A program made the position numbers and the translations under genes. From Mycoplasma mycoides subsp. capri (lineage in GTDB: Bacteria; Bacillota_I; Bacilli_A; Mycoplasmatales; Mycoplasmataceae): DNA of 32,000 nt. Shown here one piece after another: positions 13,066-32,000 of the stretch. Numbering within the stretch: the first letter of the stretch is position 1; each line of letters starts with the position of its first letter. Where the stretch lies: contig NZ_CP065581.1 of NCBI RefSeq assembly GCF_018389705.1, forward strand, positions 990,001-1,022,000, given 5' to 3'. The notes below the pieces were generated by a model, which saw nothing but the letters and a program-made list of their open reading frames with translations, was not told where the DNA came from and made no database searches.

Positions 13066-13103
13066 AGCAAATAAAAAATGGCAATTATATACTTGCCATT
13101 TTT
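13066..13103 (-). terminator. Rho-independent terminator of the HU-like gene
   Basis: AAAATGGCAA (13075-13084) pairs with TTGCCATTTT (13093-13102). A U-rich tract follows on the minus transcript. Confidence 0.6.
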
Positions 13104-13107
13104 GCCC

Positions 13108-14040
13108 TTATTCATTCATTTTTTCTTTAACAGATTTTGATAATTTAAATTTAACAACTTTATGTGCAGGAACTTCGATTTGTTCTTGTGTTAAAGGATT
13201 CATCTTCATTTGAGCTTCTTTTTCAACTGTTTCAAATTTACCAAATTTTGCTAAAACAACATGATCACCAGCAACTAAGTTTTTGCTTGCTACAATAAAT
13301 GCTTTATCAAAGATTGTTTTAATTGAAACTTTAGTCATTTCAATGAATTCAGGATCTTCATAAAGTTCGTCAAGTAACATACCTTTTGTAACTTGTGGGT
13401 AAGTTTTTTTCTTTTTACGTTTTTTAGCTGGTTTAGTTTCTGATTCAACCATAATTGGAGCAGGAACTACAACTGGTTCTGGTTCTGGTTTTGGTTCTGG
13501 TTTTGGTTCTGGTTTTGGTTCAGGCTCAACTACTGGTTCAGGTTCAGTCATCATTGGTTCTGGTTCAGTCATCATTGGTTCAGGTTCAACTACTGGTTCA
13601 GGTTCAGTCATTGGTAATTGTTCAACAACCATAACTTCTTCTTTTTTCATTGGTTGTTCTTCTGATTCAGTTTCAACAATTACATCACCTTCAGTTTTGA
13701 TTGTAATGTCTACTTTAGTTGTAGAATCTTCAACTTGAATAGTTTTTACTAAGTTTTTGTAGTATAAAATGTAAAAAATTAAAGAAACAATTAGTATTAG
13801 TGGTATTCAAGTGATGAATGCAATGTTACAAAATTCATCCAATCCAGGTCCTCATTTAACCGGTTTAGCTAATGTAACACCAAAACCAGTTAAAGCTGTC
13901 ATAAAGTCAGGACCAATTTTTCCTGTTCATTTACTTACATTAACTAGTTTTAAAATAAAGATGATAACAAAAGAAACAAAAAATAGGCCTAGAAATATTC
14001 TAGCTACAAGTAAGTGTTTACTTGATGGTTTTTTTGACAT
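13108..14040 (-). CDS. Membrane-anchored protein with Pro/Glu-rich repeat linker and C-terminal HU/IHF-fold domain
   Basis: The track ORF 13108..13650 extends upstream in frame through three TGA codons to the ATG at 14040 (alternative 14046), preceded by AAAAAGAG. Two hydrophobic helices are present (ARIFLGLFFVSFVIIFILKLV and IAFITWIPLILIVSLIFYILYY). They are followed by an acidic segment, EPEP/KPEP repeats and KKRKKKK. The C-terminus LAKFGKFETVEKEAQMKMNPLTQEQIEVPAHKVVKFKLSKSVKE aligns without gaps to the HU core GFGxFxV...NPxTGExIxIPAxxVxxFKxGKxLKD. 310 aa. Confidence 0.8.
13475..13612 (-). repeat. In-frame tandem repeats encoding (K/E)PEP and MMTEPEP/VVEPEP units
   Basis: ggttctggtttt occurs 3 times in tandem (PEPK). 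The ggttc(a/t)ggttcagtcatcatt and ggttcaggttcaactact units are each seen twice. Confidence 0.85.
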
Positions 14041-14258
14041 TTTCATATCTCTTTTTACTTCTTTCTATAGATTAAAGATTGCTATTTAATATAGCTGATC
14101 AGTACACATATATGAGTAGGTTTTGAAATGTTATTAAAAATAATACCTATAAAATAATTATATATTTTATTAATTTATGAATTTATTTAGCAGAGAAAAT
14201 TTCGTAATATAGGCTTAAAATTTGATAAAACAAGCGTTCATTTGTAATAAATAAATGT

Positions 14259-23873: not shown

Positions 23874-23949
23874 ACTAGCCTTTCTTATAAAAATTGAATT
23901 AAAATTATTAAATATAAAAATAAAAATTCTCTATTTTTGCACAAATTAA

Positions 23950-23976
23950 AATAAGAAAAAAACTAATTTTCTTATT
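23950..23976. promoter_or_regulatory. 10-bp inverted repeat in the nox/pncA divergent intergenic region
   Basis: AATAAGAAAA (23950-59) and TTTTCTTATT (23967-76) are separated by a 7-nt spacer. No gene ends here, so it could be an operator. It could also be chance in AT-rich DNA. Confidence 0.25.
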
Positions 23977-24090
23977 AAAATAATTCAAAACTAAATATTT
24001 TTTATATTAATATTATTTATAAAATAATAATTTAATCTATTTAAATTATATAATCAGAACTTAATTATTAATGCTAAGAAAGTACTATTT

Positions 24091-24591
24091 ATGAAATCTA
24101 AAAATAAAAATAAAGCATTAATTATTGTAGATTATCAATATGATTTTTGTGATCCTAATGGTAGTTTATATGTAAAAAATGCTTATACATTAAAACCTAA
24201 AATTGAAAAATTGGCAAAAGAATTAAAGTCTCAAGGTTGAACAATTATTGCAACTAAAGATTTTCATCCAATTGATCATTGTTCTTTTAAAATTTGAAAT
24301 AAACATTGTGTACAAAATACTAAAGGTAGTGAACTTTATTTTGATTATAGTGATGTTGATTTAATTATTGAAAAAGGCGTTAATAAAGATATTGAAAGCT
24401 ATAGTGGCTTTTTTGATGATGCTAATAACTCAAATGGATTAGATGAATATTTAAAATCAAAAAACATAGACACTTTAAAAATAGTTGGTGTTGCTACTGA
24501 AATTTGTGTAAAAGCTAATTATGATGACGCTATTAAATTAGGTTATGATGTTGAGGTTGATTTAGAATATTGCAAAGGTTTTACTGACTAG
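24091..24591 (+). CDS. pncA: Isochorismatase-family amidase, nicotinamidase/pyrazinamidase-like
   Basis: ALIIVDYQYDF (Asp), ATKDFHP (Lys) and VGVATEICV (Cys) form the catalytic triad pattern. Two internal TGA codons. TAG at 24589-24591. 166 aa. Confidence 0.75.
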
Positions 24592-24780: not shown

Positions 24781-26109
24781 ATGAAAAATAAACATATCAG
24801 ACTACTAGCAAAACTTGGAGTTTTATTTTCTGTTGCATCACTTCCATTAGTTGTTGTTTCATGTAAAACTTCAAATTCTAATAACAATAAACCTAATAAT
24901 AATCAACAAAAACAATTAAGTAAAATTGATATTTCAAGTTTTAAAGGTAAAATTGAACCAAAAAATGAGTGAAATAAAGAAAATGTTTTACAAGCATTAC
25001 TAAAAATAAATGGACTAGATAAATTAACTGAAAATGATTTTGAATTTAGTATTAAGAAAGCTAATTTATTACATAATGGAAAACTAGTAATTAAATCTAA
25101 AGACGATTCTAAAATTATAAAAGGTGAACTAAGTTTAGAAATTAAAAAACTAGATAAAGTTAAAAAGGTTGAAACAAAATATAATGATAATAAAACTGAA
25201 GTTTTAGAAATTGGTTATGATGAAAATGGAAAAATTTCTAGGTTTGCTGAAACTGTTAAAAAAGTTCCTGAAAAACTACCAGAAGAAATTATTAATTTAG
25301 ATGATGCTTTTAGAAAAAATCAATCTAATACAATTGAGAATCTTGATAAATGAGACACATCTAATATAGTAAGTATGTCAGCAATGTTTCAAAATGCTAA
25401 GAATTTTAGTCAAGATTTATCAAATTGAAATACAGAAAGTGTAACTGATATGAGTTATATGTTTAATGGTGCAAATAAATTCAATGGTAATTTATCAAAT
25501 TGAAATACAAAAAATGTAAAAAATATGTGAAGTTTATTTGAAGATACTAAAGAATTTGACCAAGATATTTCTAACTGAGATGTAAGTAATGTTGAAAACA
25601 TGAAAAGTATGTTTAAGAACGCATCAAAATTTAATAAGTCACTTTCAAATTGAAATCTAAAGAGTATAAAAACACTAGATTCTATGTTTTTTGGTGCTTC
25701 TGAATTTAATAGCGATATCTTCAAACTAGAAAATAATCTAGTAACTGATATGAGTTATATGTTTTATCAAGCTAAAAAATTTAATAAGTCTTTAGATTGA
25801 GATATATCAAAAGTAACTAATATGAATAGTATGTTCAATAACGCTCATAGTTTTAATCAAAATATAACTAATTGAAATGTTTCAAATGTTAAAACTATGA
25901 AAAGTATGTTTAGTGATGCACATTCATTTAGTCAAGATATAAAAGATTGAAAAGTTGATAAAGTAACTGATATGGAGCGTATGTTTCAAAATGCAAGAAG
26001 CTTTAATAGAAATATTTCGAATTGAAACGTAAAAAGCGTAAAAACATATGATCACTTTAGTATACACTTAAAAAATGAATATAAACCTCAATTTGGAAAA
26101 AATAAATAA
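24781..26109 (+). CDS. Lipoprotein with DUF285 (BspA-like, mycoplasma repeat) domain
   Basis: Strong RBS TAGGAGAG. The signal peptide has the lipobox LVVVSC. The track ORF stops at a TGA at 24970 and reads on to the TAA at 26107-26109. 442 aa. Confidence 0.85.
25351..26049 (+). repeat. Ten tandem 75-nt (25-aa) DUF285 repeat units
   Basis: The unit-initial TGA (Trp) recurs at 25351, 25426, 25501, 25576, 25651, (Leu at 25726), 25798, 25873, 25948 and 26023. The unit consensus is W-[DN]-x-S-x-V-x-x-M-x-x-M-F-x-x-A-x-x-F-N-x-x-[IL]-S-N. Confidence 0.85.
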
Positions 26110-26316: not shown

Positions 26317-27540
26317 ATGTTAGTAGAAACAAGCAAGAAAAATAAACAAGTTATCTTTAATTTAAAAAACTCAAAGTATCATTCATCATATTTCATTTAT
26401 ATTTGTGTCGGAATTTTATTTATATTAGGATTAATAGCTTTAATATTTTCAACACCTTATAAAAACGATTTTAAACTTTCTCAATTTTTTGAAAAAATAA
26501 CAAATTATGAATTAGGTAAATGATGAGCAAGAGGAACAGAATTAATTGGAGATACCCAAGTACTTATTTATTATCTTGCATTATTTATGATAGCTATTGA
26601 GTGCTTTTTTGCTTATAAAAAACAAAATAAAAAAGTGTTCTTTATTAAGCATTACTATTTAGTAAAAATAATTTATATATTAATTTTATTTACAATTATA
26701 TCAATAGCCATTTTTCGTATTTATAAAGTTTATAACTTTGATAACGGATTTGGAAAGTATGGTGATTTGGTATTTCAAGATACTATAATCTATAGACAAA
26801 TACTAACTACACTTATTCTTGTTTATCAAGTTATTATTTTGAGTTTATTTTTTTATACAATACATTTTAAATTAGCAAAAAGATCTGATATTTTAACTAA
26901 TAAATATTTTAGTAAGTCTATTAAAATTTTAATTATAGGTCCTTTTTTACTAACTGTTATTACTTTGATAAAAGGAATGACTTCTCGTCCTTATTATTGA
27001 AATGTAATTTTTGCAGATCTACTAAATAAAATGTCTAAAACTCATCCAGAATTTGTAACTTATTATTTAAAACAAGAAAATTTTCAACTAGGTTTTTTAG
27101 CCAGTTCATCAGATTTTAAACAATACGATTTTTTAAAACTAGTTGATATTAATCAAATTAAAAATATGTATTTTTCTAATGCAAATTCAACTGATAACTG
27201 AGCTTGATATGTATCTAATGGATTTTTTAATCCATCAAAATATACTTGTCAATTTACTTATTATCAAGAATGAGCGTTTCCATCAGGACATGCTTGTCAA
27301 ACTATGGTGGTTGGTTATGCTTGATATTCGATTTTTATTGCTGATAAGAAGTTAACTACTAAAAAATTAATGTTTTGTTTTGTTTATTTATTGTTTTTAA
27401 TTTCAATGAGTTTTGCTTTAGTTACTACTAGAGGGCATTGAGTTAGTGATGTTGCTTTTTCTTATGTTTTTACAATTCCTTTAATAGTTATTGTTGAAAT
27501 AATTTATAAAAAATTAAGTATAAAATACTTTAAAATTTAA
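26317..27540 (+). CDS. PAP2-superfamily phosphatase with extended N-terminal membrane domain (paralog 1, intact)
   Basis: I verified the whole frame codon by codon from 26998 to 27540. The three PAP2 motifs are KGMTSRPY, FPSGHA and TRGHWVSDV. 407 aa. Confidence 0.8.
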
Positions 27541-27670: not shown

Positions 27671-28877
27671 ATGACAAATACATTACCTAAAAAAGATGCG
27701 ATCAGTACTGAGTTTAAATTAAAACAACAAAAAACATTTTCTTTTAAGCCTATATTTATTAGTCTTATTATTATTTATGTTCTAGCTGTTATTAGTTTAA
27801 TATTTTCAACACCTTATAAATATGATTTTAAACTTTCTCAATTTTTTGAAAAAGGTTTAAAATTTGAAATAGTTAAATACTGATCAATGTGATATGAAAT
27901 AGTTGGAGATACTGAAATAATTATTGTTTATTTATCTGTAGCTATGATATTAATTGAAAGTTTTTTTAGATGAAAAACTATAAATAATCAAATTAACTTT
28001 TGATCAAAAAATAAATGAATATTAAAAGCAATTTATATCATAATAATCATTAGCTGATTAATTCAAGTTATTATAAAAAACATTAAAACATTTAATCAAG
28101 ATAATGGATTTGGTAGTAGTGGTGATGCTGTTTTATTAGATAGTAATATTTATCGTAATTCAGGAAACGTATTAGTTAGTGTTATTCATACAATTTTACT
28201 AATTAGTGTATTTTATTGAATTCATTTTAAACTTGCTAGATCTAAAGATTTTTTAATTAATCAATATTGAATTGATGCTTTAAAAGTTTTAATAGTAGTA
28301 TTAGTTTCAACAAGTACAGTTATTTTAAAAGGAATGACTTCAAGACCGTTTTATTATAATGTTATTTATAATGACTTATTAGAACAAGTAAAATTAAATG
28401 GAAATAATCATTGAGTTGAACATTACTTAAATCAAGATGTTTTTAAACATGGATTTTTAGATATTAAAACTAATAAATATTATAGCTAATTCAACAACCG
28501 ATTGACCTTGATATGTATCTAATGGTTTTTTTAATCCATCAAAATATACTAATCAATTTAATTATTGACATGAATGAGCATTTCCGTCAGGTCATGTTGC
28601 TGCTAGTTTAGTATTAGGTTATGTTTTATACTTATTTATAACTAAAAACAATAAGATTACTTATAAGACACTAATTATACTAGGTATTTATTTATTACAT
28701 TTATTTTCAATGAGTTTTGCTTTAGTTGTTAATAGGGGTCATTGAGTTAGTGATATTACTTTTTCTTATGTGTTTTATATTCCTTTAATAGTTGTTATAA
28801 ATGTGTATTCTAAAAATTGAATATTAAAAATAACTGAATTTATTAATAAAAAATTAAATAGTAAAAAAGGTTGTTAA
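27671..28877 (+). pseudogene. PAP2-superfamily phosphatase paralog 2, split by a single frameshift
   Basis: The frame from the ATG at 27671 carries motif 1 (KGMTSRPF) and ends at the TAA at 28487-28489. Motifs 2 and 3 (FPSGHV, NRGHWVSDI) continue in the next frame (open from 28461) to the TAA at 28875-28877. Removing one nt near 28485-28488 (tatagcTaattca) restores KYYSNSTTDWPWYVS, colinear with paralog 1 MYFSNANSTDNWAWYVS. Confidence 0.7.
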
Positions 28878-28958: not shown

Positions 28959-31223
28959 TTATCTATTATTTTCGTTATCTACATTAAGATAATTATCATC
29001 AAAGTTATCATTGAAATTATCAATAAAACTATTTAAGGCCTCATCTAGTTCACTTATTACTTTTAATTCAGATTCAATGTGTTTAAAATGTTCTTTAAGT
29101 GAAGGTTCTAAACTATATCTAATTTTATTGGTAATATTAGGTTTTATATGAGCTAATGCTTTATTTCATTCTCCCATTGTAACAATTATTTCATTTACTA
29201 AATCAACAGACGTATTGATTTCTTTATCAATATTAATTGGTTCTTTATTTCTGATTTCATCAATGGTATCTTGCATATGTTCAACTTCTTGTTTTAGAAT
29301 AATTTTTTTGTTTAAAATATCATCTATTTCAGATAGAAGTTTTCTATTTTCTTTTTCTGTTTTTTCAATTTCTTCTTCTAAATTACTTTGTGTAATCATA
29401 TTTGCAGCGATTTGTTTTTTAATATCTTTTTTATCAGACTCATATTCTTGCAATAGTTTTTCAATTTCACCTTGAGTAGCTAGAAGAGATTCTTTATCTT
29501 TATTTAATTGTTCAATTTCTTTTTGTTTGTCCTTTATTTCTTTTTCTAGACTTTCTTTTGTTAAGCTAAATTCCATTTTATCAATTTTAGATTCTAATTC
29601 TTTTAGCTCTGATTCTTTTTTAGTTTTCTCCAAATTAAGTTCTTCTATTCTTTGTTTAGATAAAGATGCTTGTCTTTCTAAATCTTTAGTTCTTTGGCTT
29701 AAATCTTTTGTTTCACTAATTAGAGTTTTATGTTCTTGCTCTTTTGTTTTAAGTTCTTTTCTAATTTCTTTTTGTTTGTGTTCTTTTTTTCTAATTTCAA
29801 TTTCAAACACTTTAGTTTCAATTTTTAAATTTTCTTTGTAAGAATCGGTTCTATCATATTCTAATTCAAGTACATAATCTTGATCTTTTAGACTTTTTAT
29901 AGTTTTTTGTTTTTCAGCAAGTTTTTTTCTTAATCTTTCTATCTCTTTTTCAATTATATTTTTGTTTTTTTCAACTTCTTTAATCTTTTTTTCTAGTTCT
30001 TGACTAACTTTTTCTTGTTCTTGAATTTTTGAATTTAAAATACTTATTTCAGACTCTAATTGCAAACTTTCTTGCTTTTTAAAATTATTTTCATTATTAA
30101 TATTTTCAATTTTTTTCTGTTTTTCTTTTAATTCATTTTGTTTTTCTAAATTATTGTTTCTTGAAGTTTTTAATTCTGATTCTAAACTACTTACTTGTTC
30201 TTTTAATCTATTTATTGTTTGTTCATTTTTAGTTATTTCAGATTTTATTTGAGTTAATTTATCTTGTTTTTCTTTTAATTGATTTTTTAAATCTTTATTT
30301 CAATCTTCACTTTTTTGACTATTTAAATTTTCAAATTCTGATTTTAATTGTTGAAGTTGAGCTTCTAAGTTGCTTATTAATTTATTATTTTCATCAATTT
30401 CATTTTGTTTTTGTTGAAGTTCATTTTTAATTCTTTCTTGTTCTGATTTAACATTAATTAGCTGACTTTCAGCAACACTAATTTTTGCTTCAATATCACT
30501 TAGTTTACTTTTTTCTGAATCAAATTGTTTTTTTAGTATTTTACTTTCTTTTTTTAAATTATCAATTTGAGAGTTCAATAAATTGATTTTTTCGTTGTAT
30601 TTTTTGATATCTGATAATTTTTGATTTAAGATTAAGTATTTTCAATTACTTTTCTGAACTATTGATTCAAGTTTATATATTTCATCACTAAATGACTTTT
30701 TAACATTTTCTAATTCTGATTTTTCTTTATTTATTTTTTCATTTTTAGCAAATAGATCTTCTAATTCTTTTTCTTTTTTAAAAAATTCATTTAGTATAGT
30801 TTTAAGAAGCCTTTTATTTTCTTTTATTTGTTCTTCTAATTTTTTTATTTCATTTTCTTTTAACGAAATATTTTGGTTATCAAGTTTTATTTCACTATTA
30901 ATCTTTACAAGATCAGCATCCAATTTATTTAATCTATTTTTATTTGTCTTGCCTTTATCATTAAGACTATTAATATTAGCATCTAAATTATTAATTTGAT
31001 TAGTTAGTTCATTTTTTTTGTTTTCACTATCATTTAAAATTTTTTGTATATTTTTTAATTCTAGTTCTTTAGTTTTCAACTCTTTTTTTATAGATTTAAT
31101 TTGATTTAGCATATTCTGTTCTTTAGTGTTATTTGAAACAGCTATGTTTTTATACCCAACATATCCAAGACCAGTAGCTGTAATAACACTAATAACTGCT
31201 AGTAAACTTGTTAGCTTTTTCAT
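28959..31223 (-). CDS. N-terminally membrane-anchored long coiled-coil protein (754 aa)
   Basis: Track pieces 29166..30065, 30300..30578 and 30642..31223 share one frame. I checked all junctions by hand and they contain only TGA. The N-terminus MKKLTSLLAVISVITATGLGYVGYKN has no lipobox Cys. About 650 aa of Lys/Glu/Leu/Asn/Ile heptad-like sequence follows, then an acidic Asn/Asp tail. TAA at 28959-28961. Confidence 0.8.
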
Positions 31224-31232
31224 AAAACACCT

Positions 31233-32000
31233 CTATTCAGTTAGCTCTGATACATTACTTGAAATTGCATCATATATAATTTTTTCAAGTTTTTTGATAT
31301 TATCTTTTATTTCTTTTTTAGATTGATCTAGTTTAGAGTTTAGGTCTTTAATTTCTTTGTGATTCTTATTTATTTTTTCTTGAATTGGTGTCATCTTTTT
31401 TATATATTCGTTATAGCGAACACTTAATTCTTCAGGAACTAATCATTTTTTAACAAGTTCAGAAAATGAAGATAAATCTTCTTTAAGTTCTTGATCTTTT
31501 TTAATAATTTCTGCTAGACTTTCTTTAGTAGTTTTAAAACCAAATCTAATTTGTTGTATATATTCAATTATTTTGTTTGAAGCGTTTTCTATATTAGCTT
31601 TTATTGTTGAAAGTCTTTCATGTTCTTTTTCAGCTAGATTTAAATCTCTATTTAATTGTGAAATTTTAGTTTCATACATTTCTACTTCTTTAATTAGATC
31701 CAGTATCTCATCAGCTTTTTTATCTATTTCTTCTTGTTTTTCAGTATTAGCTCTTTCTATATTTTCGTTAGTATGTTTTAGTTCTTCTATTGTTTTGTTT
31801 AAACTATCAACAACTTCTTTAACTCTTTTTAAATCATCTTTATCGTTTAACAATTCATCTTTTTTACTTGAAATTCTATTATTTATTTCTTTAATTTCAT
31901 TAGATAATTGCTTTTGTTTTTCTATAAATTCATTTTGTTCTTTAGTTAAATTAGATATTTTATTTTCTAATTCTGATTTTTGTGTTTTTAACATTAACAA
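31233..32000 (-). CDS. Coiled-coil protein, 5' end outside the window
   Basis: Track ORF 31443..32000 reads through the TGA at 31443-31445 to the TAG at 31233-31235. It has the same K/E/L/N-rich composition. Its stop lies 9 nt upstream of the next ATG, and that gap contains AGGTG. Confidence 0.75.

What the first reader, a model, noticed from the sequence alone, without database searches (positions are those of the whole stretch)
13108..14040. HU-fold domain tethered to the membrane through a TonB-like Pro/Glu/Lys rod
Re-joining the TGA-split ORF gives a 310-aa protein. It has two N-terminal TM helices, an acidic segment, EPEP/KPEP repeats, a KKRKKKK patch and a C-terminal domain. That domain aligns without gaps to the HU/IHF core (FGKFETVEKEAQMKMNPLTQEQIEVPAHKVVKFK versus HU FGxFxVKERAARTGRNPQTGKEIxIPA). 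The intercalating Pro of the beta-arm (NP) is kept. The arm arginines are altered (R55->K, R58->Q, R61->M in E. coli HU numbering). HU proteins are normally about 90-aa soluble dimers. A membrane-anchored, arm-degenerate HU fold on a rigid proline spacer is not an architecture I know to be characterised. It could tether the nucleoid or another nucleic acid to the membrane, or it could have been recruited for a non-DNA ligand.
Basis: partly seen in the sequence, partly recalled or inferred. Interest (0 to 1): 0.65.

Follow-up and report, generated by a model that had tools for sequence, protein, structure and literature searches.

The report
Membrane-anchored second HU protein of mycoplasmas
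This gene of the Mycoplasma mycoides group encodes a real, evolutionarily conserved but non-essential extra copy of the bacterial DNA-packaging protein HU, fixed to the inside of the cell membrane by two membrane helices and a long floppy acidic spacer, so it probably holds DNA at the membrane; it was removed when the JCVI minimal cell was built and nobody has tested what it does.

Summary
Read with genetic code 4 (three in-frame TGA=Trp codons), window 13108..14046 (-) is one 312-aa ORF. It comprises a basic N-terminus, two TM helices, an acidic juxtamembrane segment, a repeat-rich Pro/Glu spacer, a KKRKKKK patch and a full-length HU/IHF domain (Pfam PF00216, E=6.5e-20; fold search returns only HU/IHF). 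R55K, R58Q and R61M are correct, and N62-P63 are kept. The dimer-core phenylalanines and body lysines are also kept.

By position it is the orthologue of MMSYN1_0880. It is a paralogue of the essential 90-aa HU (MMSYN1_0350) and was deleted in JCVI-syn3.0/3A. Orthologues exist only in the mycoides cluster and the M. yeatsii/cottewii clade, always directly upstream of mgtA and ending in a conserved terminator. The TM hairpin and HU core are under purifying selection (dN/dS 0.13-0.15). The spacer is nearly neutral (53-169 aa between landmark motifs), and its proline content is not conserved. M. mycoides SC carries a 1-nt frameshift in the HU domain.

The charge distribution predicts N-in/C-in, so the HU domain is cytoplasmic. 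The most likely role is an accessory DNA-membrane tether. This is inferred, not shown. Comparable membrane-tethered HUs were predicted in 2017 for Bacteroidetes and haloarchaea. I rate it a new variant of a known kind, of moderate interest.

The parts
13108..14046 (-). Complete CDS (312 aa plus stop; genetic code 4) of the membrane-anchored HU paralogue. By position it is the orthologue of MMSYN1_0880.
   Evidence: Table-4 translation. Full-length orthologues at 61-96% identity in the mycoides cluster. It lies between the orthologues of MMSYN1_0879 and MMSYN1_0881, whose lengths match exactly.
13999..14046 (-). Basic N-terminal tail (aa 1-16, five K/R, no D/E), predicted cytoplasmic.
   Evidence: Charge count. 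The same bias is seen in M. cottewii and M. yeatsii.
13942..13998 (-). TM helix 1 (aa ~17-35).
   Evidence: Hydropathy up to 2.88. AF2 helix 10-40 with pLDDT about 82.
13825..13941 (-). Conserved ~39-aa loop between the TM helices (aa 36-74, containing the PVKWG motif), predicted extracellular. It contains the TGA=Trp codons W40 and W65.
   Evidence: Nearly invariant in the mycoides cluster; P62, W65 and G66 (P0001 numbering) are invariant across both clades. Not hydrophobic enough to be a TM segment.
13759..13824 (-). TM helix 2 (aa ~75-96), ending in the invariant YILYYK. It contains the TGA=Trp codon W80.
   Evidence: Hydropathy up to 2.59. AF2 helix 70-106. Invariant columns.
13621..13758 (-). 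Conserved acidic juxtamembrane segment (aa 97-142). In the M. yeatsii/cottewii clade a Cys-rich cluster takes its place.
   Evidence: Alignment. dN/dS 0.21-0.23. Cys clusters in the sister clade.
13432..13620 (-). Hypervariable Pro/Glu repeat spacer (aa 143-205), encoded by tandem DNA repeats.
   Evidence: TRF period 12 at 13473-13521 and period 21 at 13516-13611. 53-169 aa between the KKEE and KKRKKKK motifs across orthologues. dN/dS 0.55-0.82. AF2 pLDDT below 41.
13405..13431 (-). Polybasic patch PAKKRKKKK (aa 206-214) immediately before the HU domain.
   Evidence: KKRKKKK is invariant in the mycoides cluster. The sister clade has RRSTKKH or KAKKxxKKR at the same place. It raises the pI of the C-terminal module from 6.95 to 9.55.
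13111..13404 (-). HU/IHF-fold domain (aa 215-312) with a short YPQVTKG N-extension, a 3-aa insertion in the alpha1-alpha2 turn, and an arm with N62-P63 kept but R53V, R55K, R58Q and R61M.
   Evidence: Pfam PF00216 E=6.5e-20. PDB phmmer. AF2 pLDDT 60-86 with HU topology. Foldseek top 38 hits are all HU/IHF/Hbb/TF1. Residue map. dN/dS 0.13-0.14.
13074..13103 (-). Intrinsic terminator hairpin (11-bp stem plus T-run) directly after the stop codon. It separates the gene from mgtA.
   Evidence: Terminator scan. The stem AAAATGGC/GCCATTTT is conserved in M. capricolum, M. leachii, M. cottewii and M. yeatsii, with different loops.
14152..14230 (-). Conserved upstream non-coding block, probably the promoter or a regulatory region. 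It contains TAAAAT and TATAAT -10-like hexamers.
   Evidence: 27-30 of 30 identical per 30-nt window against M. capricolum across most of the block, although about 34% of synonymous sites differ. Function inferred.

Best explanation
The gene encodes a lineage-restricted, accessory, membrane-anchored paralogue of HU.

Shown or strongly supported:
- It is one polypeptide.
- It has an N-terminal two-helix membrane hairpin.
- A long spacer of variable length follows. It is acidic, low in complexity and probably disordered.
- A conserved polybasic patch sits next to a complete HU-fold domain.
- That domain keeps the dimer core, the body lysines and the intercalating Asn-Pro arm tip.
- Both structured modules are under purifying selection.
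- The gene is its own transcription unit.
- It coexists with the canonical essential 90-aa HU.
- It is dispensable in rich medium.

Inferred:
- The topology is N-in/C-in, so the HU domain lies in the cytoplasm.
- Two chains dimerise through the HU core.
- The dimer, helped by the KKRKKKK patches, binds DNA without sequence specificity. This holds segments of the chromosome (or another nucleic acid) within roughly 10 nm of the inner face of the membrane, and at most about 40-75 nm. That distance is my own estimate from standard polymer scaling for 118-212 disordered residues.
- The protein therefore acts as a DNA-membrane tether in a wall-less cell that lacks Noc/Min-type systems. The spacer acts as an entropic leash whose exact length matters little.
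For: - HU domain: Pfam PF00216 over its full length, E=6.5e-20. Spiroplasma HU structure, E=8e-10. The AF2 model has HU topology with pLDDT 60-86, and the top 38 Foldseek hits are all HU/IHF-type.
- Dimer core F29/F47/F50/F79, body lysines K3/K18/K75/K80/K83/K86 and N62-P63 are conserved in both clades.
- Two TM segments and a strongly basic N-terminus. The same charge pattern occurs in the sister clade.
- dN/dS is 0.13-0.14 for the HU core and 0.14-0.15 for the TM hairpin, against 0.22 for flanking mgtA and 0.26-0.27 for the MFS gene.
- The reading frame is kept across spacers of 53-169 aa in 24 orthologues.
- The polybasic patch is conserved in kind across clades.
- An orthologue at 32% identity in M. 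cottewii, and others in M. yeatsii and Mycoplasma sp. HU2014, have the same architecture and the same position between mnmG and mgtA.
- The terminator is conserved.
- The canonical HU MMSYN1_0350 is a separate 90-aa protein with no TM helix.
- Burroughs 2017 independently proposed nucleoid tethering for analogous TM-linked HUs.
Against: - No experiment or expression data were found for this protein.
- Three of the four conserved arm arginines are lost in the mycoides cluster. The arm is net negative (+3/-4) and the HU core alone is neutral (pI 6.95), so DNA affinity may be weak or may depend on the KKRKKKK patch.
- The gene was deleted from JCVI-syn3.0/3A with no phenotype attributed to its loss in the papers read here.
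- It is frameshifted in M. mycoides subsp. mycoides SC. Any tethering role is therefore not needed for growth or for basic chromosome segregation.
- The topology rests on the positive-inside rule only. Dimerisation was not modelled.
Confidence: 0.5

Rival explanations
1. The HU fold is used mainly for protein-protein contacts. It heterodimerises with the canonical HU (MMSYN1_0350), or binds another partner. This would recruit or sequester scarce HU at the membrane, and so tether or regulate it indirectly, without binding DNA through its own arms.
For: The dimer-core residues are conserved while the arm arginines are not. Canonical HU is reported at only about 28 copies per Syn3A cell, so sequestration could matter. 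Burroughs 2017 proposed a heterodimer with a classical HU for single-domain membrane HUs, and loss of DNA binding in the two-domain forms.
Against: N62-P63 and all body lysines remain under strong constraint. A polybasic patch is conserved next to the domain, which fits nucleic-acid contact. The sister clade keeps a basic arm with R58. The two genes are not linked.
Confidence: 0.2
2. It is a membrane-bound, one-component regulator in the style of ToxR or CadC. The conserved extracellular loop, or the juxtamembrane acidic or Cys-rich segment, senses a signal such as a cation. The HU domain then bends or binds specific DNA, for example near the adjacent P-type cation ATPase gene.
For: The gene sits directly upstream of mgtA in both clades even where other neighbours differ. 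The loop between the TM helices is conserved. The sister clade has a 6-11-Cys juxtamembrane cluster suggestive of metal binding. A conserved non-coding block lies upstream.
Against: The HU domain scores as generic HU/IHF, and I found no evidence of sequence-specific recognition. The region is syntenic as a whole, so adjacency is weak evidence. A conserved terminator separates the gene from mgtA. mgtA (0879) remains essential and functional in Syn3A without this gene. The N-terminal module is only weakly constrained in the sister clade (dN/dS 0.71).
Confidence: 0.1
3. The topology is reversed and the HU domain is displayed on the cell surface. There it would bind extracellular DNA or host polyanions, as extracellular DNABII proteins do in biofilms. 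The variable Pro-rich repeats would be an antigenically variable stalk.
For: Repeat-length variation and Pro/Glu-rich stalks are typical of mycoplasma surface proteins (general knowledge). The spacer varies strongly between strains.
Against: The N-terminus is +5/0, and there are two TM segments rather than one or three. This gives N-in/C-in in both clades. Translocating a tail of more than 200 aa that carries KKRKKKK, without a signal peptide, is unfavourable. The sister clade has a Cys-rich cluster on the same side, which fits a reducing cytoplasm. Spacer substitutions look neutral rather than positively selected (dN/dS below 1).
Confidence: 0.05
4. It is a decaying, functionless remnant of an HU duplication fused by chance to a membrane ORF.
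For: Deleted in syn3.0/3A. Frameshifted in M. mycoides SC, with an IS element inserted upstream. Truncated or frameshifted copies occur sporadically in single strains (P0022, P0023, P0024, P0033).
Against: dN/dS of 0.13-0.15 on both modules is lower than for the neighbouring essential transporter. The architecture and synteny are retained at 32% identity in a sister clade. The frame is preserved through many spacer length changes. The terminator and upstream block are conserved.
Confidence: 0.05

Closest known systems
Canonical bacterial HU (for example B. subtilis HBsu, Spiroplasma melliferum HU PDB 5L8Z, M. mycoides MMSYN1_0350)
   Same: Same Pfam family and fold. 40.5% identity to Spiroplasma HU over 74 ungapped residues. 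The aromatic dimer core, body lysines and the intercalating Pro63 with Asn62 are conserved.
   Different: 312 aa instead of about 90. It has an N-terminal TM hairpin, a 118-aa spacer and a polybasic patch. R53, R58 and R61 are lost and R55 is Lys; G46 is Lys. There is a 3-aa insertion in the alpha1-alpha2 turn, and the core is neutral rather than basic. It is non-essential, whereas MMSYN1_0350 is essential.
Bacteroidetes HU-CCDC81 proteins fused to a disordered segment, a TM helix and SPOR/LysM domains; and haloarchaeal HUs with N-terminal TM helices (Burroughs et al. 2017, PMC5499826)
   Same: A cytoplasmic HU domain joined by a disordered linker to a membrane anchor. These were predicted to tether the nucleoid to the envelope, and some members have degenerate DNA-binding features. 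The haloarchaeal forms also have the TM helices at the N-terminus.
   Different: The anchor is unrelated. An exhaustive search with the N-terminal module finds only Mycoplasma proteins. There is no HU-CCDC81 Pfam hit. The domain order is the reverse of the Bacteroidetes forms. There is no extracellular peptidoglycan-binding domain; these cells have no wall. It is therefore an independent, convergent fusion. Those families are also computational predictions only.
HU proteins with charged extensions (mycobacterial HupB/MDP1 and Streptomyces HupS C-terminal PAKKA tails; Deinococcus and Burkholderiales N-terminal Lys-rich extensions; Kamashev et al. 2017, PMC5683647)
   Same: A Lys-rich segment next to the HU core that could add DNA affinity. 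Kamashev et al. note long N-termini among Mollicute HUs.
   Different: Here the basic patch is only 7-9 residues. It is preceded by a long net-acidic spacer and a membrane anchor, and the protein is not soluble.
TonB proline-rich spacer
   Same: (EP)n and (KP)n repeats follow a membrane anchor. NCBIfam's TonB model aligns to aa 125-217 (E=4.9e-7, 29.9 bits).
   Different: The score is far below the cut-off of 315 bits. There is no TonB C-terminal domain. Mollicutes have no outer membrane. The proline richness is not conserved in orthologues. The resemblance is compositional only.
Noc and RacA-DivIVA DNA-membrane tethers of Bacillus
   Same: The proposed function: recruiting chromosomal DNA to the membrane.
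   Different: The folds are unrelated (ParB-like, or a MerR-type wHTH) and they attach to the membrane peripherally rather than integrally. This is a functional analogy only.

Membership tests
HU/IHF (DNABII; Pfam PF00216 Bac_DNA_binding) | Profile match above the curated threshold over the whole ~90-residue domain | tested here: met
   aa 220-311 against profile positions 2-90 of 90, 71.6 bits against a cut-off of 22.4, E=6.5e-20. The NCBIfam IHF and HU equivalog models hit but lie below their equivalog cut-offs, so it is neither a bona fide IHF-alpha/beta nor HU-alpha/beta equivalog.
HU/IHF (DNABII; Pfam PF00216 Bac_DNA_binding) | alpha1-alpha2-beta sheet with protruding beta-arm-alpha3 fold | tested here: met
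   The AF2 model of the window's C-terminal 180 aa has H89-97, H110-128, five strands and H172-179, with pLDDT 60-86. Foldseek ranks 1-38 are all HU/IHF/Hbb/TF1, best E=3.8e-6, TM-score up to 0.65 normalised to the target. The model is of moderate confidence and is a monomer.
HU/IHF (DNABII; Pfam PF00216 Bac_DNA_binding) | Intercalating proline at the arm tip (Pro63, with Asn62) | tested here: met
   N283-P284 align with N62-P63 and are invariant in all orthologues of both clades.
HU/IHF (DNABII; Pfam PF00216 Bac_DNA_binding) | Conserved arm arginines R55, R58 and R61 (plus R53 in HBsu) | tested here: not met
   The window and the mycoides cluster have V53, K55, Q58 (E in M. leachii) and M61 (I in M. 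leachii). The sister clade has V53, V55, R58 and M/I61, but compensating K56, K66, K68 and R64. Arm charge is +3/-4 here against +5 to +6/-2 to -4 in canonical HUs.
HU/IHF (DNABII; Pfam PF00216 Bac_DNA_binding) | Hydrophobic/aromatic dimerisation core (F29, F47, F50, F79) and the GFG motif | tested here: met
   F29, F47, F50 and F79 are all conserved. The motif is KFG rather than GFG, with G46->K in the whole family. Actual dimerisation was not testable with these tools.
HU/IHF (DNABII; Pfam PF00216 Bac_DNA_binding) | Binds and bends DNA | not testable with these tools
   Needs EMSA or another binding assay with aa 206-312.
TonB | C-terminal TonB domain (Pfam TonB_C) and match to a TonB equivalog model | tested here: not met
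   No TonB_C hit in Pfam. NF008084 scores 29.9 bits against a cut-off of 315 and covers only the Pro-rich spacer.
TonB | Conserved proline-rich rigid spacer | tested here: not met
   Proline is 19% of the spacer in the window, 9% in M. leachii and 5% in M. cottewii and M. yeatsii. Spacer dN/dS is 0.55-0.82.
Bacteroidetes HU-CCDC81 membrane-tethered HUs (Burroughs 2017) | HU domain of the CCDC81 clade; N-terminal HU followed by a disordered segment, one TM helix and an extracellular SPOR/LysM domain | tested here: not met
   Only PF00216 passes its threshold; there is no HU_CCDC81, SPOR or LysM hit. The domain order is reversed and there is no extracellular domain beyond a 39-aa loop. The features shared are a cytoplasmic HU, a disordered linker and a membrane anchor.
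HU-HIG (Pfam PF18291) | Profile match above the gathering threshold | tested here: not met
   16.8-18.5 bits against a cut-off of 26.2.
Known anti-phage defence or phage protein families | Match to a PADLOC or specific PHROG family; mobile-element context | tested here: not met
   PADLOC gives 0 hits. PHROGs gives only the generic phage HU-type family phrog_379. The neighbours are housekeeping and transport genes.

The most novel reading that the evidence does not exclude
This is a dedicated integral-membrane chromosome tether of wall-less bacteria. A dimeric HU head on a leash of variable length pins DNA to the cytoplasmic face of the membrane. In the sister clade a juxtamembrane Cys cluster may add a metal-sensitive switch. 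Its removal during genome minimisation would be one reason why JCVI-syn3A is described as having no DNA-membrane attachment protein. Adding MMSYN1_0880 back would then measurably re-organise the minimal cell's nucleoid.
Probability: 0.3. Interest if true: 0.6.

Novelty: new variant of a known kind. Interest (0 to 1): 0.4.

Why it matters
If the tethering function is real, the Mycoplasma mycoides group, the parent of the JCVI synthetic and minimal cells, has a simple single-gene link between chromosome and membrane that whole-cell and chromosome models do not include. Those models state that Syn3A has one HU-type protein and no DNA-membrane attachment protein (PMC8339304, PMC10445541). That is correct for Syn3A, but only because this gene was deleted.

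The system is unusually easy to test. syn1.0 has the gene and Syn3A lacks it, and both have cryo-ET, 3C and proteomic baselines. The gene is also an independent third example, after the Bacteroidetes and haloarchaeal cases, of HU being fused to a membrane anchor, which supports the idea that this is a recurrent solution.

If the protein does not bind DNA, it would be a case of the HU fold re-used for another ligand. Either way, the practical consequences are modest: the gene is accessory, confined to a narrow lineage, and already inactivated in the CBPP agent (M. mycoides subsp. mycoides SC).

Tried and rejected
1. Table-11 ORF calling splits the gene. I retranslated with code 4.
2. The first genome-contig scan with the single protein found nothing. 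The alignment-based rescan found only M. yeatsii and Mycoplasma sp. HU2014. Mycoides-cluster genomes appear not to be retrievable there, and M. putrefaciens was not detected. The scan depends on short patterns, so absence is not proven.
I used P0023, a frameshifted fragment without the HU domain, as a proxy for the N-terminal module. I used P0001 and the window's table-11 180-aa ORF for AF2.
4. The word-indexed search with the HU domain alone returned only 6 candidates and told me little.
5. The first AF2 model, of the full-length protein with 17 sequences, gave an unusable HU domain (pLDDT below 57). Only the second run was usable.
6. I first suspected that this gene was the single Syn3A HU, JCVISYN3A_0350. 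I rejected that: 0350 is a 90-aa protein with no TM helix and lies next to dnaD and gpsB.
7. TonB relationship rejected as compositional.
8. Internal start at Met133 rejected.
9. A third TM segment in the loop rejected.
10. Phase variation through the A-runs that encode KKRKKKK was considered, because P0023 is frameshifted there. The runs are only 5-7 nt, and that evidence is a single short read-set contig, so I did not pursue it.
11. Defence-system, phage and structured-RNA explanations: no support.
12. Literature searches for locus tags, proteomics or essentiality data on this gene found nothing.
Full report
**What is there.** The window is AT-rich (GC about 19-30%). Its genes are interrupted by TGA under table 11, which is the signature of a Mollicute using genetic code 4. 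Under code 4 the minus strand at 13108..14046 is one uninterrupted 312-aa ORF. It has three in-frame TGA=Trp codons: W40, W65 and W80. The first ATG at 14046 is conserved in all orthologues and is the likelier start.

- a basic N-terminus (five K/R, no acidic residue);
- two strongly hydrophobic segments, about aa 12-38 and 72-100, and no third one (the loop peaks at 0.77);
- an acidic juxtamembrane segment;
- a Pro/Glu repeat region encoded by DNA tandem repeats of period 12 and period 21;
- a PAKKRKKKK patch;
- a C-terminal domain that matches Pfam PF00216 end to end (E=6.5e-20, 71.6 bits against a cut-off of 22.4).

**HU fold and residues.** phmmer against PDB sequences returns only HU, IHF, Hbb, TF1 and related histone-like proteins. 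The best hit is Spiroplasma melliferum HU (E=8e-10, 74 ungapped columns, 40.5% identity). An AF2 model of the window's own C-terminal 180 residues gives the HU order of helices and strands at pLDDT 60-86. The first 38 Foldseek PDB hits are all HU/IHF-type proteins.

[quoted passage not shown] The alignment also shows:
- R53V, K59M, G60K and G46K;
- a 3-residue insertion in the alpha1-alpha2 turn, which is the commonest insertion site in HU according to PMC5683647;
- intact aromatic core residues F29, F47, F50 and F79;
- intact body lysines K3, K18, K75, K80, K83 and K86.

The arm is net negative (+3/-4). The HU core alone has pI 6.95, and including the KKRKKKK patch raises it to 9.55.

**Whose gene it is.** Full-length homologues occur in M. 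mycoides (subsp. capri and subsp. mycoides), M. feriruminatoris, M. capricolum and M. leachii. They are annotated 'HU family DNA-binding protein'. Some subsp. mycoides (SC) records name them 'putative transmembrane protein and histone-like DNA-binding protein'.

The neighbours are a P-type cation ATPase, a Mycoplasma MFS transporter, AsnA, MnmG, amino-acid permeases and an ECF S-component. These correspond to MMSYN1_0876-0887 as described in the JCVI literature. In the Syn3A gene table, 0879 is 2658 nt and 0881 is 1428 nt, exactly the lengths of the two ORFs that flank this gene. The gap between them is 398 nt in Syn3A and 1331 nt in the window. Neither MMSYN1_0880 nor JCVISYN3A_0880 appears in any syn3.0 or Syn3A table. 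The gene is therefore the MMSYN1_0880 orthologue (by position, inferred), and it was cleanly removed in the minimal cell.

The single HU of Syn3A, JCVISYN3A_0350, is a different gene. It encodes a 90-aa protein with no TM helix, lies next to dnaD and gpsB, and is essential. It is reported at about 28 copies per cell. The mycoides cluster thus has two HU-family genes, contrary to the generalisation that Mollicutes have one.

**Distribution and conservation.** I ran an exhaustive phmmer scan of 1.84 billion representative proteins. The query was a natural fragment that contains the N-terminal module and spacer but no HU domain. The scan found only three proteins: the query, the mycoides-cluster representative, and a 302-aa protein at 32% identity. 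That protein is from M. cottewii. It has the same architecture and lies between mnmG and the mgtA-type ATPase. Further orthologues of 338 aa occur in M. yeatsii, in Mycoplasma sp. HU2014 and in unassigned read-set assemblies, with the same synteny.

Nei-Gojobori dN/dS under code 4, window against M. capricolum / M. leachii:

| Region | dN/dS |
|---|---|
| HU core | 0.13 / 0.14 |
| TM hairpin | 0.14 / 0.15 |
| Juxtamembrane segment | 0.21 / 0.23 |
| Spacer | 0.55 / 0.82 |
| mgtA (flanking) | 0.22 / 0.23 |
| MFS (flanking) | 0.27 / 0.26 |

Between M. cottewii and P0055 the HU domain gives 0.22 and the N-terminal module 0.71.

Across 24 intact orthologues the stretch between the KKEE and KKRKKKK motifs ranges from 53 to 169 residues, and the HU domain is always in frame. 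Together these results argue strongly that the whole ORF is translated as one protein and that both ends are functional.

The spacer is not a conserved proline rod. Proline falls from 19% to 5% across species, while acidic content (21-26%) and the terminal basic patch persist. AF2 treats the spacer as disordered.

**Expression unit.** The upstream MFS gene ends with its own hairpin. About 300 nt of AT-rich intergenic DNA follow. They include a 79-nt block (14152-14230) that is 90-100% identical to M. capricolum, even though about 34% of synonymous sites differ. An 11-bp-stem terminator follows the stop codon directly. Its stem is conserved in both clades while the loop differs. The gene is therefore monocistronic and is not co-transcribed with mgtA.

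**Decay in some lineages.** All M. mycoides subsp. mycoides (SC) entries carry a single-G deletion in the Gly269 codon. It removes the arm and the C-terminal half of the HU domain, while the downstream DNA is almost unchanged. An IS transposase also lies between the MFS gene and this gene there. Single strains of M. capricolum, M. leachii and M. feriruminatoris have truncated or frameshifted versions. Together with the deletion in syn3.0/3A, this marks the gene as accessory.

**Topology.** The N-terminus has +5/0 charge, the loop +4/-3 and the first 15 residues after TM2 +3/-2. In M. cottewii and M. yeatsii the loop is net negative and both flanks are basic. With two TM segments, the positive-inside rule gives N-in/C-in. 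The spacer, the basic patch and the HU domain are then cytoplasmic, and only a conserved ~39-aa loop is outside. In the sister clade, a cluster of 6-11 cysteines directly after TM2 also fits a cytoplasmic location better (inference).

**Mechanism.** The best-supported reading is an accessory DNA-membrane tether. HU-fold dimerisation is inferred from the conserved core. It would bring together two chains, each anchored by a hairpin. The body lysines, the Asn-Pro arm tips and two KKRKKKK patches would provide non-specific nucleic-acid binding. The disordered acidic spacer would act as a leash whose exact length is unimportant. Every functional step is inferred; none was tested. I put confidence at about 0.5.

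Rival readings:
- Protein-protein use of the fold, or heterodimerisation with the scarce canonical HU (0.2).
- A ToxR-like, membrane-bound, possibly cation-linked regulator next to mgtA (0.1).
- Surface display of a DNABII domain (0.05; contradicted by the charge topology).
- A functionless relic (0.05; contradicted by dN/dS and by conservation across clades).

**Comparison with what is known.** The protein is a member of the HU/IHF superfamily by profile, fold, arm-tip and dimer-core criteria. It fails the conserved arm-arginine criterion and is not a small soluble protein.

It is not TonB. It has no TonB_C domain, its score is far below threshold, and the spacer is not conserved. It is not an HU-CCDC81 or HU-HIG protein.

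Conceptually, the closest relatives are the membrane-tethered HUs that Burroughs et al. 2017 predicted to anchor the nucleoid to the envelope. In Bacteroidetes these have an HU domain, a disordered segment, a TM helix and a SPOR or LysM domain. In haloarchaea the TM helices are N-terminal to the HU domain. The mycoplasma anchor is unrelated to any of these, so this is an independent, convergent fusion. I found no paper that discusses this protein or its function.

**Verdict.** The 'rigid TonB-like rod' and the claim of an unknown architecture are overstated. This is a new variant of a known kind: a lineage-specific, membrane-anchored HU paralogue. It is already annotated as such, but nobody has studied it. 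Interest is moderate (0.4). It is raised by how easily syn1.0 and Syn3A can be compared, and by the statement in minimal-cell models that no DNA-membrane attachment protein exists. It is lowered by the gene's dispensability, its narrow distribution and the earlier computational precedent.

Noticed in passing
window 14152-14230 (- strand), upstream of the gene; small palindrome GCTATATTAAATAGC at about 14084-14098: A non-coding block that is 90-100% identical between the window, M. capricolum and M. leachii, although about 34% of synonymous sites differ. It is probably the promoter or an operator. A short conserved palindrome lies in the 5' leader.
   Followed up: partly
L001 8001-8909 (M. cottewii); L008 4965-5981 (M. 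yeatsii); L009 4716-5732 (Mycoplasma sp. HU2014); L002 8001-9017: In sister-clade orthologues a dense cysteine cluster replaces the acidic juxtamembrane segment (6-11 Cys, for example CKAECACECEKSCEKSCEDKVCEKSCDNKSC). It lies directly after TM2, and the gene is next to a P-type cation ATPase. This may be a metal-binding element.
   Followed up: no
L007 2249-3660 and 4001-5014 (M. mycoides subsp. mycoides, CP010267): An IS transposase (rve family) is inserted between the MFS gene and the TM-HU gene. A single-G deletion frameshifts the HU domain. The frameshifted ORF runs on into the start of mgtA.
   Followed up: yes
window 26317-27540 (+) and 27671-28489 (+): Tandem paralogous membrane proteins that share the FSTPYKxDFKLSQFFEK motif. 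The first (407 aa) has a C-terminal PAP2 phosphatase domain. The second (272 aa) ends before it and has no Pfam hit, so it may be a truncated copy.
   Followed up: partly
window 24781-26109 (+); 28959-31223 (-) and 31233-31994 (-): A DUF285-repeat lipoprotein with a weak Spiralin-like N-terminal region, and two long Lys/Glu-rich ORFs that look like coiled coils. The first of these starts with a signal-peptide-like sequence. They are typical mycoides-cluster surface proteins.
   Followed up: partly
window ~23900-24100: Gene orientation switches from the minus strand to the plus strand, and the sign of the GC skew flips. The cumulative skew reaches its minimum near 24 kb.
   Followed up: no
window 13405-13431 (A-runs encoding KKRKKKK); P0023: One M. 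feriruminatoris read-set contig is frameshifted inside the A-rich tract that encodes the polybasic patch. The runs are only 5-7 nt, so a sequencing or assembly error is at least as likely as phase variation.
   Followed up: partly
window 13811-14089 (+): A 92-aa antisense ORF overlaps the 5' end of the gene. The equivalent ORF is called as a gene in one M. mycoides record (L007 3958-4236). It has no Pfam hit and lies opposite codons that are under purifying selection, so it is very likely spurious.
   Followed up: partly
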